Positions 14,750 through 63,764 of a DNA stretch of 64,000 nucleotides are shown piece after piece (the first letter of the stretch is position 1; every line of letters begins with the position of its first letter). Under the pieces are notes generated by a model. That model did not search any database and had not been told where the DNA came from. It saw only the letters and a program-made list of their open reading frames with translations. A program made the translations under genes and the position numbers. The DNA comes from Eledone cirrhosa. Its lineage: Eukaryota. Location: assembly GCA_964016885.1 (NCBI GenBank), contig OZ024741.1:14384001-14448000 (forward strand), in the 5' to 3' direction.

Positions 14750-14939
14750 CTGGAGTTGAGGGTTGCACATTTTTTCGGGGATATGTGTTACCCATATGAA
14801 CTGTCTCCCCCTATTGGGGAAAATCAACTAACTTTTTAAATTGCATTTGTGATAACATTTTACACGTTTTTATTGTATGTAAACTTCCCCCTTTGTATTT
14901 GTCCCCTTCTTTTGTGCCCCTGTGGCTAATAAAGAAACA

Positions 14940-14940
<1 letters not shown>
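14750..14940 (+). mobile_element. 3' UTR of a LINE (probably Tx1) inside (TATC)n
   Basis: Ends GTGGCTAATAAAGAAAC then (TATC)n; same end at 25628-25682, also inside (TATC)n. Confidence 0.6.
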
Positions 14941-15007
<67 letters not shown>

Positions 15008-15008
<1 letters not shown>

Positions 15009-15616
15009 CTCCTCCCTTCTGTATGTGTTGACTCTCGAGCCACTACTGCGGAAGTTGGAGTTGTTGCAGGGCATCCCTTTGGAACCGGGATTGCGGAAAG
15101 CGGTGTCGGCCTACGCCGATGACGTGACAGTAATGGTGTCGACGGCCTCCGAAATCGAGGCGGTCGGCACCTTACTGGAGGAGTGCGAAAAGTTCACAGG
15201 GGCTAAGCTGAACCGGGACAAGTCGATCGGTTTGCAACTCGGCACGTGGAGGGGCAGACCGATGCCCTCCGATGGCGTCGTCGGACGCTGGACGGAGGGC
15301 CCGGTGAAGTTGCTCGGGGTCTGGTTCGGACCGGACCTCCAGGTGGAGAAAAACTGGGCGGAGGTTACGAACAGGGTGTTTGCACTGACCCAGAAGTGGG
15401 CCAGTTGCAAACTATCCCTGAAAGGTCGGGCGGAGGTGGCGAACACCTACATAGCGTCCGTCATCTACTACCGCCTGACCGTAGTGCCCTGCCCAAGGGA
15501 AACCCTCACTAAGATGGAGCGCGCGCTCTTCCAATTCCTTTGGAAGAGGCGGGCTCCTATGGTGAGGAGATCCATCTGCTGTCAACACCCTTCGAAAGGA
15601 GGGCTGGGGATGCCGT
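15008..15616 (+). mobile_element. Tx1/L1-clade LINE reverse transcriptase fragment (uninterrupted frame)
   Basis: LYVLTLEPLLRKL, AYADDVTV, GAKLNRDKS, KLLGVWFG, LSLKGR, FLWK, GGLGMP; flanked by (CTAT)n. Confidence 0.92.
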
Positions 15617-16234
15617 GTATCTATCTATCTATCCATCACTCAGCGTTGTCTGACATTCACAGTATATACTGGCAACTCTGATATATTCATGGAGGAAAAT
15701 AGAGAAAAATGTTTTTTTTCTCGTTTTGATCGTTACGAAAAAATATTTTTCTTCGGCAGCGAGACTACCCATATGTTCATTGTATATAATCGTATAATAT
15801 ATGTTTATATATGTCTTCATATACACCTCTCCTTGTATATTATCCAATCCATCTCCTATGAAATGGTAATTTATTTATTGTCGTCGAAAGAAAGGAAGGC
15901 AAAGCTGGCCTCAGCAGGATTTGAACTGAGATTGCGGACAGTCGGAACAATTACGAGACATGCTACACTATTTTAATACTTTGTGTTATATTTTGTTTTT
16001 AACTCACAATATTACAATACAGGATTTAAAAGACAAACTTTATTGAATTTTCTACCACACAAATAAAAAATCGAATGTTAGAAAGTAATAGAAAATTAGA
16101 CCGAAATAACGTCTTGGCGTTTTATTTTCCTTTCAAACCGAGTGAAAACAAAAAATATTTTTTTATTTATAATTCCAAAACGTCTAAATAATTCTATTCA
16201 ATTTAATAGTAAAGAATGTTATATCTTATTTGAA

Positions 16235-27989: not shown

Positions 27990-28125
27990 CGAATATGTCT
28001 TAGCTAATATTTCCCATGTTATCTTGTTTGGTTTGTTCCTTACTTTCAGAAACCATATGTAGCCAGATGAAGCTGTAACATATTTGTTGTCAGTGTTTCG
28101 AAATGATTTTCTCTGCTGCAACAAG
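27990..28125 (-). mobile_element. PLE GIY-YIG endonuclease fragment (Naiad-like)
   Basis: RKSFRNTDNKYVTASSGYIWFLKVRNKPNKITWEILAK matches H..SF....T.LS.YIW.LK.....I.W.IL. Confidence 0.8.
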
Positions 28126-36084: not shown

Positions 36085-36339
36085 TGACAGAATCATTACC
36101 ACAGCAGAGGTTCGATGAGCTTTTGATTCCAGAGTCAGGATAGATCGATACAGATCGAACCTTGAGCTGACCAATAGTGAAACGCGCGTCACCAATTAAG
36201 AAACGTAATGAAGACATAACAAATCGTCGTATTATTATATTACACTCTGTTTAGCTCTATACCTCAGTTTAGAGCTGAACCTAAACATTGAGTGCTCATC
36301 TGGGTGAACCTACAGTAACTTCATGTTACACTCCCTGGA
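36085..36339 (+). mobile_element. Family A copy (hammerhead region plus tail)
   Basis: CGATGAG..CAGAGTCAGG..GAGCTGA..GAAACGCGCGTCACC; tail to CTCCCTGGA(TA)n. Confidence 0.8.
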
Positions 36340-36351
36340 TATATATATATG

Positions 36352-36856
36352 GTAGGTGAAAGGGAACGGAACGCGAGTGTTGGGAGGGTGGGCTGAGGTC
36401 TGTTTCACGGGCGCGGGTGAGAGCAGCTTGGATCAGGGTGGGGGATATCCACGCTGGATGAAGCAGGAAGCCATGCGAAGGGAATGGGTTTCGAAATCGT
36501 CGTCCTGGCTACAGAGTCGACGAAGAGGGAGGAATTGGGAATAGGGTATGGAGTGTTTGGTGTGGGTTGGATGGGAGGAGGTGAAGTCGAGGTAAAATTG
36601 GGAGTCTGTTGGTTTAATGAAGATGGAAGTAGAGAGGGTGTGGTGAGAGTGATTAATAGATAGAGAGATATCTAGAAATGCGACAGGAGAATCGGAGACG
36701 GAGGCAGTGAAATTGAGAGCAGGATGGAAAGATTGGACAAAAGAAAGAAAACAGTCGAGCTGTTCTCGTGATAGAGAGGTGACGCCGATACAGTCGTCGA
36801 TATAACGACCGTATAGCTCAGGAGTCGGTCTTCTTGTTAGCTTCGTACGGACGTAT

Positions 36857-36858
<2 letters not shown>
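36352..36858 (-). mobile_element. Penelope-like element reverse transcriptase fragment (Neptune-like)
   Basis: YGRYIDDCI, FHPALNFT, AFLDISL, IFIKPTDSQFYLDFTSSHP, SIPYSQFL.LRRLCS, F.QRGYP: RT core plus PLE thumb motifs. Confidence 0.93.
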
Positions 36859-36907
<49 letters not shown>

Positions 36908-36914
36908 TGCTTAC

Positions 36915-37254
36915 GCACGTGCACAAGTATAGCTCTTTTTACAAAAAGTTTTTTTTTTCCATTTCAGGTAGACGCACTCCATCCACTTTTCTAAAATATA
37001 AATCCTACACAAAACACCAGCACCAACAGTTTTGGAAGAGATGTCAACATGAATGGACCTGTTATTTTTATCTAAAGGCATTTTTACCAATTCCATCCCG
37101 CCCGTCCCCTCAATCTATCTTATTTCTCATTCTTTTTTCTGATGAAGGACTAGCCTCCAAAACGTTAAGACCCTCTTCCTGCTATATCAAGCGTTAACCT
37201 AATATATACCTTCCATATACTGTACCAATTGTGTTGTTATTTCTGTTTACCTTT

Positions 37255-37262
<8 letters not shown>
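36915..37262 (+). mobile_element. PLE pLTR-like end, family B, with minimal hammerhead
   Basis: 37135-37170 CTGATGA-A-GGACTAGCCTCC-AAAA-CGT-TA-AGA; tail TTCTGTTTACCTTTTACA also at 4321-4368, 4918 and 57522. Confidence 0.75.
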
Positions 37263-37325
<63 letters not shown>

Positions 37326-37331
<6 letters not shown>

Positions 37332-37845
37332 ATGCTTTGGGAGGGTCATGTTGCCAGTAAGAAACACACGCACCAGTTGCTTTCACTCCAATTTATTATA
37401 AATTAAATTTATAAATTTAAGAATTTATAAATTTCCGGTTGGTTGGTTGGTTCCATAACCGGACGGTTGTTCATATATTGTCAAATTTCTTTCGTTACAC
37501 ATTCTGTGACCTCTTCAGTGACTGGGGATTATTTTCTTTGTTTTGTGCCTCTCTTTTGTTCTGTCCTACGCCATCTTGTTTTTTCAAGATGGCGTAGGAC
37601 AGAACAAAGGACGAAAGAACTTTGACGATATATGAACAACCGTCCGTTTGTGGAACCAACCAACCAACCGGAAATTTATAAATTCTTAAATTTATAAATT
37701 TGATTTATAATAAATTGGAGTGAAAGCAACTGGTGCGTGTGTTTCTTACTGGCAACATGACCCTCCCAAAGTATAACAATATCGGTTTAAACACACGTTT
37801 TCAGATAAAGAATCTTGCTAAACAAATTCAGAAACGAAATATATA
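37326..37845 (+). mobile_element. Fold-back element (~170-bp arms plus inner hairpin), hammerhead on inverted arm
   Basis: 37326-37495 is the reverse complement of 37611-37781; minus 37480-37522: GTCA-CTGAAGA-GGTCACA-GAA-TGTGTAAC-GAAA-GAAAT-TT-GAC. Confidence 0.8.
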
Positions 37846-38535: not shown

Positions 38536-38538
<3 letters not shown>

Positions 38539-38793
38539 AGGGAGTGTAACGCGGAGTTACTGTAGGTTCACCCCGGTGAGCACCAATCAAAACAACTTAA
38601 ACTGACCAACATATGTACGTTAGACATTTTTGTACGCCCTGTGTCATTGCTACGACAGAGGTGTGACGAGCCGTGGATTACAGAGTCGGACTACATCGAT
38701 ATAGACCGAACCGTGAGCTGAACGGTGGCGAAACGCGCGTCACCAACCAATAAACGTAGTGAAGGAGTAACCACTCGTCCTTGTATTGTTATT
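38536..38793 (+). mobile_element. Family A copy: inverted tail followed by hammerhead region
   Basis: 38536-38585 is the reverse complement of the family A tail; GGT-GTGACGA-GCCGT..GTGGC-GAAA-CGCGCG-TC-ACC at 38660-38744. Confidence 0.8.
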
Positions 38794-38814
38794 ACACACA
38801 CAGACACACACACA

Positions 38815-57365: not shown

Positions 57366-57737
<372 letters not shown>

Positions 57738-58188: not shown

Positions 58189-58195
<7 letters not shown>
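57775..58195 (+). mobile_element. RTE-like 5' UTR plus APE start (third relative)
   Basis: Shared 5' module; KLCVGS(F)NISSL with a frameshift (cf. APE TFNIRSL); ends CCATCAT(AT)n. Confidence 0.6.
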
Positions 58196-58227
<32 letters not shown>

Positions 58228-58258
58228 GTATATAGTGATAATGACTTGTTAAGGATTG

Positions 58259-58301
<43 letters not shown>

Positions 58302-58308
<7 letters not shown>

Positions 58309-58529
58309 TGTATATATAGTGTATTTTGCAATACACTGTATGCTTAATTAAAACCATTTCGAAGACGTTATGCTGTTGTTTTTGCTGAAAATTTAAAGTA
58401 AGTGAGACTGTCACTACTCTAAAACAATCGCATAATGTCTTCGAAACGCTTTTAATTAAGCATACAGTGTATTGCAAAATACACTGTATATACATTCATA
58501 TATATATCGCTATTTCAGAGCATCAATTC

Positions 58530-58535
<6 letters not shown>
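58302..58535 (+). mobile_element. Fold-back element (~75-bp arms) plus short tail
   Basis: 58302-58375 is the reverse complement of 58425-58503; TTC-GAAA-CGC; flanked by (TA)n. Confidence 0.75.
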
Positions 58536-58597
<62 letters not shown>

Positions 58598-60884: not shown

Positions 60885-61829
60885 TTACAGTAAGAATTAT
60901 AATTATAAGAAATAAAAGAAGTTAAATAGATTTAAGCCACCAACAGATATTTGCTATGGTGATAGGAGTTCGGCTTATACTTGCTATTTGCTTTCAAGCC
61001 TCTCTATATATGCCAAACGAAATGCTTTCATGTTGTTTTTTAACGATAAGCCCTAATCTCTCGGATGTACATAAATTGCAAGATCTTTTGTTGCTAGTAT
61101 ATAACTGAGCTCTAGAGAAGATGATCTATTTTACGTGCTAACTTATATCTATTTATGTATTCATTTATTTTTTCTCAAATCCCATATGATATAAGATAAA
61201 GACATTTCTGTAACTATTAGGTTTCTGCATGTATGAGTGTGGTTATTAAAGCATAACTTAAAAGGAATAGAGGTTAGGCCAACGTATGTATGATATGAAT
61301 TATTAGTCTGTACATTACATTGGTAAATGATATCGCTCGCTTAGCACTTAGATTCTGCAGGGAATGCACTTGAGTTAATGCCATTACAATTAATATTAAA
61401 TATGAGGTTAGAGTTAATATTAAGAAAGTTAGTTGAATGAAATTTATACAAGTTAAATGACGTTAAGTTTTATGCAAAATTAGGTGTGGTGGTGGAATAA
61501 AAAATATATTAGGGTGTTCCTATTGAATAATTTATAATATCTATGGCGTTGAGGGGAAGTTTTAAGTAGTTTGAAAAATTATCTAGCTGTCGGTGTAGTT
61601 TTCATTAAGTTACAAGGTGAGGTAAACCAATTAATGTTTCATTTTCCGTTTCTATTTGTATGTGATATCGTGTCTAATATTGTAAGTTTGATAATCCAAG
61701 TGAAACGTTTCTAAGTTATTTATAACGTTTCCTGTAGGATTAGAAACATCGTGTAAATACTACTGAACTAGTGTCGTCACTAAAGACAACGACAGGACTG
61801 AACTTATTTAACTTTTAAAAAATCCAGGA

Positions 61830-62600: not shown

Positions 62601-62620
62601 ATATAAATATATATATATAT

Positions 62621-63535
62621 ATAGTTAAATAAGATAAAAGGACGATTGGTTACTCCTTCATTACGTTTATTGGTTGGTTACGTTTATTGGTTTCGCCACT
62701 GATCAGCTCAAGGTTCGTTCTGTATCGATCTGACCTGACTCTGTAATCCGCGGCTCGTCAGACCCCGTGTAATGTTAATGGAAGAATGAATACATGTATG
62801 CTTAAGTCAGAAGTTACAATGGTGGTCAGTAAAGTTTATTTTGATTGGTGGATGAGTTCATAGGGATGTTTTTGCCCGTAGTGTATGTGGGGGTGGGGGT
62901 GGGGGTGATGGTTGCGACATAATATTTGCAGGGTAAATTTTACGGTGGATTAAGATTAAAAAGTGGCATAGGGAATATGGGGTACTGGACTGAGGGGTGG
63001 TGGACGTATGGTGATGTGTTTGGTGGTGGTGGTGGTGGGGATGATTTGTTCGACATCATAGTTACAGGGTCGGATTTTAGCATGGGTTTACAAGTTAAAA
63101 CCTGACAGAGAAGACACATAGAACACAATAGTATTGAGAGGAGGGATGTATAGCGAAGTGTTTGTTGGTGGGGGTGAATGGTGCAACATGATATTTACAA
63201 GATATGATCTTACCATGGGTTACATGTGATAGAAGACAAATGTATTGAGATGAAGGACCGTGTGGAAAAGCAAAGTTGGTTATCCCTATGTTGGGTCAGG
63301 GTTAGTGTTTGGCCCTCGGCCGAATGTTTGTGCAGAGAGGGTGGTCATTCTGGTGTGTCTGCAGTTTACATTAACATCCGATCTTGAGTTTATGGCCGAT
63401 TTCAATTTAATGATCTCAGCCGCTTCGGCCAGGCATAATCTACAGTGGGTTTTGTCGTTGGGGAGATGTGCCACACGTCTTTTCATCTGGAATCCCAAGT
63501 TCTTGTCTTTGAGGTTCTATAAACCGGTAATAGAC
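62621..63535 (-). mobile_element. Naiad-like PLE 3' portion: GIY-YIG C-terminus, ~500-bp 3' UTR, family A pLTR and hammerhead
   Basis: NLKDKNLGFQM..HCRLCLAEAAEII..INSRSDVNVNCRH (C.LCL.E..I..N.RS....CRH); then GGGGT-CTGACGA-GCCGC..GTGGC-GAAA at 62684-62766. Confidence 0.85.
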
Positions 63536-63725
63536 AATTATTAAATATATAAATAAATAAATAAATGCCATTGTTAATTAATAAATAAATCAACTAATAC
63601 TTTAACACTTCACACAAAGTAAAATATTTCGTTTTAATCATTTTCTAACACAGAAAAAAGAGAGAGAAAATAAAAAAGGAAAAAAAATATATTTTTCTTC
63701 CTAATAATCGTCTTTTTCTCCCTGT

Positions 63726-63764
<39 letters not shown>

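What the first reader, a model, noticed from the sequence alone, without database searches (positions are those of the whole stretch)
62621..63535. Direct link between fold-back family A and a coding Naiad-like PLE
Seen: on the minus strand a GIY-YIG C-terminus (CRLCLAE..INSRS..CRH) runs through about 500 bp of UTR into the same hammerhead-bearing sequence found alone at 3947, 36085 and 38536. A second Naiad-like endonuclease piece lies at 27990 and a Neptune-like RT at 36352. Inference: the short hairpins are 5'-truncated or inverted products of PLEs from at least two clades, and this copy identifies a parent element.
Basis: partly seen in the sequence, partly recalled or inferred. Interest (0 to 1): 0.75.

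Follow-up and report, generated by a model that had tools for sequence, protein, structure and literature searches.

The report
Truncated Hydra-clade Penelope, strong-stop siblings
This is the broken tail end of a known kind of animal jumping gene (a Hydra-type, not Naiad-type, Penelope element), and its many short sister copies likely arise when the element's enzyme starts copying near the front of its own RNA and runs off the end.

Summary
The link is real; the clade name is wrong. 62621-63516 (-) is a 5'-truncated Penelope-like element: 76 endonuclease codons, a 3' UTR and a type I hammerhead motif. It shares the motif with 3946-4258, 36093-36338 and 38537-38797. Sister copies carry RT first and GIY-YIG last; one has an open 858-codon ORF. 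They show the Hydra marks (CxCX5C, DKT, no CCHH, terminal CxxC/CxH) and no conserved UGA. So this is neither Naiad nor a selenoprotein. Family A is the element's pLTR. The Neptune piece at 36352 is a separate insertion with its own hammerhead, and the 27990 piece is weakly Hydra-like.

Beyond the known: the hammerhead has a 60-nt stem II arm, and copies end at two sites 99 nt apart. In a tail-selected sample, 27 of 32 arms stop in the 36 nt before the hammerhead core, around an initiator-like TCATT. None of 8 ORF-bearing copies stops there. This fits 'strong-stop' cDNAs from linear mRNA plus long copies from end-less templates (inferred). The scan has already noted Hydra ends, long arms and twin hairpins elsewhere in this genome, and strong-stop copies in another genome.

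The parts
63286..63516 (-). Last 76 codons and stop of a Hydra-clade GIY-YIG endonuclease. CxxC (CRLC) at 63444-63433, CxH (CRH) at 63363-63355. 5'-truncated, with a 4-codon in-frame gap against sister copies.
   Evidence: (80% identical to the natural sister piece L024, E 8e-38)
62788..63285 (-). 3' UTR with internal C/A-rich repeats. About 400 nt shorter than most sisters, with the gap near 62900; sister L020/L025 has a similar gap.
62785..62790 (-). Initiator-like TCATT (A at 62787), 26 nt before the hammerhead core. Short sister copies start around here; predicted transcription start.
   Evidence: promoter role inferred
62672..62766 (-). Type I hammerhead motif: core CUGACGA at 62761-62755, a 60-nt stem II arm at 62754-62695, GAAA at 62694-62691. 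In this copy a duplication replaced the palindromic loop 3 and left a GUA triplet (predicted cut after 62679).
62619..62624 (-). Internal 3' terminus (site 1) running into (TA)n. The 99-nt tail to site 2 is absent from this copy.
3946..4258 (+). Family A fold-back: an inverted 53-nt arm ending at site 1, joined to a forward arm from the TCATT zone through a mutated hammerhead and the tail to site 2; (TA)n on both sides.
36093..36338 (+). Family A, subfamily A3, short copy ending at site 2; core mutated.
38537..38797 (+). Family A, subfamily A2: an inverted 47-nt tail piece, then a forward arm ending near site 1; core C3 mutated.
36352..37257 (.). Not family A. A Neptune-type insertion: inverted RT piece (36836-36352, -) joined to its own 3' UTR and hammerhead remnant (36836-37257, +).
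27990..28118 (-). Old endonuclease remnant, weakly Hydra-like; not linked to family A.
   Evidence: iE 0.008, 9 bits; single place
63518..63730 (+). 3' end of a different, younger hammerhead-bearing repeat (starts in stem III), head to head with this copy across TATA.

Best explanation
The finding is a 5'-truncated piece of a Hydra-clade Penelope-like retrotransposon, family A is that element's terminal repeat (pLTR), and copies likely form by target-primed reverse transcription at (TA)n that starts at either of two internal sites in the RNA. SHOWN: order pLTR (hammerhead, site 1, 99-nt tail, site 2), then one ORF of RT-linker-GIY-YIG, a 3' UTR and the pLTR again; two fixed 3' ends; (TA)n flanks; fold-backs made of a tailed arm plus an inverted site-1 arm; a pile-up of 5' ends just before the hammerhead. 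INFERRED: the endonuclease nicks both strands of a TA run and each nick primes a cDNA, one at site 2 and one at site 1. Joining their far ends gives the fold-back. Priming in the 5' pLTR of a linear mRNA that begins near TCATT would run off after about 165 or 265 nt, giving the short copies. This copy passes that point into UTR and EN, so it would come from priming at site 1 of a downstream pLTR. Long copies that end at site 2 or overrun the start point would come from multimeric or hammerhead-cut circular RNA. Confidence is about 0.97 for the Hydra/pLTR identity and about 0.5 for the two-template step.
For: Domain order and motifs in the natural copy L194:1123-3699: WRA 38, DKTG 125, YRDD 356, CNCKKRAEC 709, NIVY 727, YIG 743, CRLC 807, CRH 834. 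These match the Hydra definition (PMC8557442 section 11 and Fig. S7). The module lies on both sides of the ORF in 13 of 20 loci. In 28 ORF-selected loci, 15 of 32 matches end at site 2 and 11 at site 1. In 30 loci chosen on the tail alone, 18 have an inverted arm ending at site 1 and 1 at site 2. 27 of 32 arms that reach the zone stop in the 36 nt before the core, against about 10% expected from the downstream rate; 0 of 8 ORF-bearing copies stop there (Fisher p 1.7e-5). 26 of 30 arms that span the core begin -8 to +21 from the A of TCATT, 13 within 6 nt, including joints with no TA flank. Two internal RT starts and two-strand cutting are shown in vitro for an anole PLE (PMC11167929, parts 1-2 of 4 read). 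An internal Inr/DPE promoter lies in the Penelope pLTR (PMC2377424 passages).
Against: Nothing was tested on RNA or protein. The stop zone was chosen after seeing the data. The two arms of one locus are not independent, and only the 30 best tail matches of 40 scored (1255 candidates) were read. Five of the 8 ORF-bearing controls are older subfamilies (79-83% identical to the reference). The zone is AT-rich (12 TA/AT steps in 36 nt), so microhomology could add to the pile-up. Long copies end at site 2 about as often as at site 1, which a simple linear mRNA plus hairpin rule does not predict. A copy's own two pLTRs were its best match in only 5 of 7 cases, which does not single out a circle. One locus (L092) joins the module to another Hydra family, but it is 1 of 25 loci of that family. 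No labelled reference sequences were in the tree.
Confidence: 0.85

Rival explanations
1. The parent is a Naiad (N-terminal EN), possibly a selenoprotein.
For: Naiads occur in octopuses and insert in (TA)n (PMC8557442 File S1).
Against: RT precedes EN in one open frame; there is no CCHH; CxCX5C and terminal CxxC/CxH are present; a full hammerhead core is present; there is no conserved TGA. Naiad_Obim begins with its EN.
Confidence: 0.01
2. Short copies are ordinary random 5' truncations, and the pile-up comes from TA-like microhomology or an RT pause at the foot of hammerhead helix I, with a single kind of template.
For: The zone is AT-rich and begins with a TATA-like stretch. Ends are spread over about 30 nt, not fixed at one base.
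Against: ORF-bearing copies pass the same zone 8 of 8 times. Arm-to-arm joints without TA flank also cluster at 0 to +5. An equally AT-rich bin further upstream stops 1 of 3 arms (small numbers).
Confidence: 0.3
3. Family A short copies are a self-propagating non-autonomous (SINE- or retrozyme-like) element with an inherited 5' boundary.
For: 26 of 30 tail-selected forward arms start less than 45 nt before the core, or further downstream. Retrozymes derived from PLE pLTRs are published (bioRxiv 10.64898/2026.07.22.740005, part 1 of 5 and passages).
Against: 5' joints differ from copy to copy, and the copies carry variants of several subfamilies. None of the loci whose matches were tabulated shows a head-to-tail array of the short module. 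Short copies lack the sequence behind site 2 (needed only if hairpin 2 is required, untested).
Confidence: 0.15
4. The adjacency is chance nesting of unrelated pieces in a TA field.
For: Nesting is common here: L092, the 63518 neighbour and the Neptune piece.
Against: There is no microsatellite at the EN-UTR-hammerhead joints, and the same order recurs genome-wide. Of 28 loci picked on the 3' module, 9 extend at least 170 nt into the same UTR and 4 reach EN codons.
Confidence: 0.01

Closest known systems
Hydra clade of C-terminal EN+ PLEs, incl. Hydra-1_Obim of Octopus bimaculoides (Craig et al. 2021, PMC8557442; sections 11 and 20, passages, and supplement parts 1, 2, 7, 52, 53, 59 read)
   Same: Single ORF RT-linker-GIY-YIG; RW[KR], DKT, YRDD; CxCX5C; no CCHH; no IFD; terminal CxxC/CxH; hammerhead in the 3' end; (TA)n target.
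   Different: A distinct family: 858 aa against 709 aa for Hydra-1_Obim. pLTR-to-pLTR unit about 3.1-4.8 kb against 'generally <3 kb'. Stem II arm 60 nt against a 7-bp stem with 8-nt loop in Hydra-1_Obim. 99-nt tail. Two subfamilies carry a U4C core. The closest stored proteins are 31-52% identical over the aligned parts.
PAc, Poseidon element of Anolis carolinensis (PMC11167929; parts 1-2 of 4 read)
   Same: Two internal RT start sites downstream of the hammerhead that define an optional tail; AT-rich target; cutting and extension on both strands.
   Different: Different clade. The tail here is 99 nt and lies before the ATG, whereas the PAc starts lie 111-118 nt into the ORF. Here only genomic footprints were seen.
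Minimal type I hammerheads of metazoan PLE pLTRs (PMC4209133; part 1 of 4 read)
   Same: Conserved core, short helix III with a palindromic loop (GCGC) suited to dimeric cleavage, position in the pLTR.
   Different: Helix II carries a roughly 60-nt extension; not matched by Rfam at gathering score.
Naiad clade (PMC8557442)
   Same: (TA)n preference; inverted and tandem insertions.
   Different: EN is N-terminal with CCHH in Naiads, canonical hammerheads are absent, and some encode Sec. None of this holds here.

Membership tests
Hydra clade PLE | Single ORF with RT first and C-terminal GIY-YIG EN | tested here: met
   L194:1123-3699, 858 codons without a stop
Hydra clade PLE | CxCX5C linker motif | tested here: met
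   CNCKKRAEC at 709; same pattern in L024 and L033
Hydra clade PLE | CCHH absent from EN | tested here: met
   No cysteine pair between NIVY (727) and YIG (743); one Cys only
Hydra clade PLE | CxxC and CxH flanking the conserved E and N | tested here: met
   CRLC-LAE ... IN ... CRH in the window copy and L194; Fig. S7 legend
Hydra clade PLE | RWK and DKT motifs; no IFD | tested here: met
   RWR in most copies (WRA in L194), DKTG. About 60 aa between motifs A and B', as in the Hydra rows of Fig. S7, compared by eye
Hydra clade PLE | Hammerhead in the 3' end and (TA)n insertion | tested here: met
   Core intact in 17 of 23 A1 copies; pair counts; TA runs at both termini
Hydra clade PLE | Generally shorter than 3 kb (a tendency, not a rule) | tested here: not met
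   Unit about 3.1-4.8 kb, owing to long UTRs and ORF insertions
Hydra clade PLE | Groups with named Hydra RTs in a tree | tested here: inconclusive
   The tree of 23 rows held only unlabelled homologues and no outgroup; the published references were not available as stored sequences
Naiad clade PLE | N-terminal EN joined to RT by a CxC domain | tested here: not met
   EN is C-terminal
Naiad clade PLE | CCHH motif in EN | tested here: not met
   Absent
Naiad selenoprotein | Conserved in-frame UGA codons | tested here: not met
   29 copies, median depth 21; most TGA at one codon is 4 of 23 (Arg378); L194 has none
Type I hammerhead ribozyme | Core CUGANGA/GAAA with three helices and an NUH site | tested here: met
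   58 copies, 89.6% of cells paired; three pairs swap on both sides between subfamilies
Type I hammerhead ribozyme | Self-cleavage | not testable with these tools
   No assay
Non-LTR retrozyme | Tandem non-coding monomers each with a hammerhead | tested here: not met
   Short copies are single or inverted pairs; tandem pLTRs enclose an ORF

The most novel reading that the evidence does not exclude
Most short family A copies are PLE 'strong-stop' cDNAs. The genome itself then records the element's transcription start (TCATT, 26 nt before the hammerhead core) and both RT start sites, each just ahead of a bulged hairpin conserved from coral and sea cucumber Hydra elements to this one. Long copies come from a second, end-less template made by hammerhead cutting and circularisation. 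This would explain pLTRs, tails and fold-backs in one scheme.
Probability: 0.4. Interest if true: 0.6.

Novelty: new member of a known kind. Interest (0 to 1): 0.3.

Why it matters
As a locus it is ordinary repeat debris, and the correction matters mainly for annotation: CxxC...CxH-ended endonucleases next to hammerheads are Hydra, not Naiad. The family is useful because how PLEs make pLTRs, tails and inverted ends is described as undefined in Craig et al. (passages). Here the copies give exact predictions: a transcription start, two RT start sites 99 nt apart, a hairpin behind each, and a natural open ORF (L194) for an in vitro test like the anole one.

Tried and rejected
Rfam at gathering score: 0 hits in the window. 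Pfam-A scan of 7 proteins: no hit above a curated cut-off, and none relevant. Shared 3' module between two Hydra families (suggested by L092): rejected, 1 of 25 loci. Neptune as a second parent: rejected, 0 of 11 other loci. One-step heterologous twin priming for the 63517/63518 joint: not favoured. TATA separates the two pieces, and their best genomic matches differ (86-87% against 95-98%), which fits two insertions into one TA run. Own-versus-other pLTR identity as a test of circles: not discriminating. An automatic classification of upstream flanks was noisy because of microsatellites and was not used; one search was redone as for the same reason. Unlabelled tree: uninformative on clade. 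RNA evidence: no RNA holder listed; no reads laid. DNA search for sisters of the 27990 piece found only itself (such searches can miss repeats). No structure prediction was run. Literature: 7 searches turned up no paper on strong-stop copies or tail hairpins in Hydra elements. 'Hairpin' and 'stem-loop' occur 0 times in the main text of PMC8557442, and 'Hydra' and 'hammerhead' 0 times in the O. vulgaris repeat paper PMC13282606 (passages). Subscription journals and bioRxiv supplements were not searchable.

Full report
Observation. The minus strand of 62621-63516 holds 76 codons ending CRLCLAE...INSRS...CRH...DPT and a stop at 63288-63286. Then come 524 nt of UTR, a hammerhead core at 62761 and a (TA)n run from about 62620. 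The last 180 nt match 3999-4159 (90%), 38660-38786 (82%) and 36125-36241 (78%). The window is G000:C2:14384001-14448000 of a 3.0-Gb genome. The named proteins among the homologues come from Argonauta hians and Octopus bimaculoides, so the host is probably an octopod (inference).

The parent. A search with the EN+UTR stretch scored 40 places; 20 were fetched, and all 19 others follow the same EN-to-UTR path. Many extend further 5' into linker and RT. A search at the ORF start gave 25 loci, of which 20 were refetched at length. In 19 of 20 the family A module precedes the ORF (the query held 70 nt of it), and in 13 of 20 it recurs behind the ORF, so family A is the pLTR. One natural copy, L194:1123-3699, is open for 858 codons: WRA 38, DKTG 125, YRDD 356, CNCKKRAEC 709, NIVY 727, YIG 743, CRLC 807, CRH 834. 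Craig et al. (PMC8557442, section 11 and Fig. S7) define Hydra by a C-terminal EN, RWK, DKT, CxCX5C, no CCHH, terminal CxxC/CxH, canonical hammerheads and (TA)n targets. All are met, with RWR for RWK. The one miss is length (unit about 3.1-4.8 kb). Naiads have the EN first and lack canonical hammerheads. Across 29 copies (median depth 21) no codon has TGA in more than 4 of 23, so there is no selenoprotein. The paper's File S1 lists one octopus Hydra family, with a different, short hammerhead, so this is a further family. The tree had no labelled references and adds nothing on clade.

The refutation test. Of 28 loci picked on the 3' module alone (30 fetched, less the window's own and one overlapping the reference), 9 extend at least 170 nt into the same UTR and 4 reach EN codons. 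The rest stop near the query start, often in microsatellite or an inverted self-copy. Subfamily A2 also links to the same EN type through an inverted piece (L083, 69% amino-acid identity). No A3 locus of 25 reached family coding sequence within 1.5 kb, so the parent of A3 is assumed from UTR similarity. One locus (L092) joins the module to another Hydra family, but it is 1 of 25 loci of that family.

The RT at 36836-36352 is Neptune-type: sisters show CX4CxxC and CCHH. It is the inverted half of an insertion whose 3' UTR and own hammerhead remnant lie at 36836-37257, and 0 of 11 other loci carry family A. The 27990 piece scores weakly with a profile of six Hydra-like proteins (iE 0.008).

Hammerhead. 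In 58 aligned copies (76 located, rows with shifts or flanks left out) a structure of 30 pairs is 89.6% paired, against 20-41% when slid. It has 63 cells changed on both sides against 25.9 in shuffles (0 of 500). The number of pairs with such changes (5) is not above shuffles (277 of 500). Three pairs carry nearly all the signal (one in helix I, two in helix II), as subfamily-level swaps, and the structure was drawn from these sequences. The distal 60-nt arm is conserved but shows almost no swaps. Loop 3 is the palindrome GCGC, as in dimer-type PLE hammerheads (PMC4209133, part 1 of 4 read). The core is CUGACGA in 17 of 23 A1 copies but CCGACGA in 7 of 15 A2 and 10 of 20 A3 copies. U4C is a known, weaker natural variant (PMC3088659 passage). 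In the finding's copy the core survives, but loop 3 was overwritten and the stretch folds no better than shuffles. The three other window copies have core mutations.

Termini. In 28 ORF-selected loci, 15 of 32 matches end at site 2 and 11 at site 1, 99 nt upstream. This is the PLE 'tail', which in an anole PLE equals the gap between two internal RT starts (PMC11167929). In 30 loci picked on the tail alone, 18 carry an inverted arm ending at site 1 and 1 at site 2. Earlier scan notes pointed to hairpins behind the termini, so I checked. A CACTC/GAGTG stem with a 2-nt bulge starts about 4 nt behind site 1 (each outer pair kept in 50-56 of 56 tails, no two-sided swaps). A weak GCTC/GAGC stem starts about 7 nt behind site 2. 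[quoted passage not shown] A role in priming is untested.

5' ends. In the tail-selected sample, 27 of 32 arms that reach the zone stop within the 36 nt before the core, against about 10% expected from the rate downstream. None of 8 ORF-bearing copies that reach the zone stops there. Fine mapping puts 26 of 30 arms at -8 to +21 from the A of TCATT, 13 within 6 nt, including arm-to-arm joints without TA flank. TCATT fits the initiator consensus TCAKTY (recalled), and D. virilis Penelope has an internal Inr/DPE promoter in its pLTR (PMC2377424 passages). Caveats: the zone was chosen after seeing the data, arms in one locus are paired, the zone is AT-rich, and the control is small and partly of older subfamilies.

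Mechanism. Shown: anatomy, clade marks, two 3' ends, the composition of fold-backs, the 5' pile-up. Inferred: two-strand nicking at (TA)n, priming at sites 1 and 2, run-off at the mRNA start for short copies, priming in the downstream pLTR for this copy, and a multimeric or circular template for long copies that overrun the start. The circle idea was also in an earlier scan note, and my test of it did not discriminate. A strong-stop reading from another genome turned up after my own count.

Verdict. A real link to a known kind of element: a new Hydra family, mislabelled Naiad. Interest 0.3, carried by the testable start-site footprint, which the scan has partly seen before.

Noticed in passing
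window 63518-63730 (+): 3' end of a younger repeat (best matches 95-98%; 1245 first-look candidates). Sisters carry a hammerhead with a U3-A8 core (UUGAUAA). It sits head to head with the finding across TATA; parent not found.
   Followed up: partly
window 61021-61665 (-): Another decayed Hydra-type linker/EN remnant of a different family (profile iE 7e-11).
   Followed up: partly
window 5857-6206: 350-nt palindrome whose arms weakly match the family A hammerhead arm (77% over 65 nt, E 5e-6); likely a distant relative.
   Followed up: no
window 4311-4436 and 57513-57733: Further 3'-end stubs of the Neptune family.
   Followed up: partly
window 4430-4811, 37324-37782, 8967-10374, 56640-57207, 58195-58593: Other fold-back repeats, mostly in (TA)n fields; the first two hold CTGAAGA...GAAA hammerhead-like cores, read by eye.
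   Followed up: no
L092:oriented 1-1823 (G000:C14:26735940-26739147): Chimera of a second Hydra family (closer by eye to Hydra-1_Obim) whose UTR switches into the family A 3' end with no microsatellite at the joint; 1 of 25 loci.
   Followed up: yes
window 62759-62756 (-) and sisters: In subfamily A1 the hammerhead core puts GACG at +29 to +32 from the TCATT adenine, where a DPE would lie; the spacing is one base shorter in A3. Speculative overlap of ribozyme core and promoter.
   Followed up: no
window 14800-15678 (+) and 6568-6894 (+): Open frames that look like RT pieces of other non-LTR elements (family names not checked).
   Followed up: no
L194:1123-3699 (G000:C3:151601400-151607200): Natural uninterrupted 858-codon Hydra ORF; its 5' hammerhead is cut short.
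   Followed up: yes
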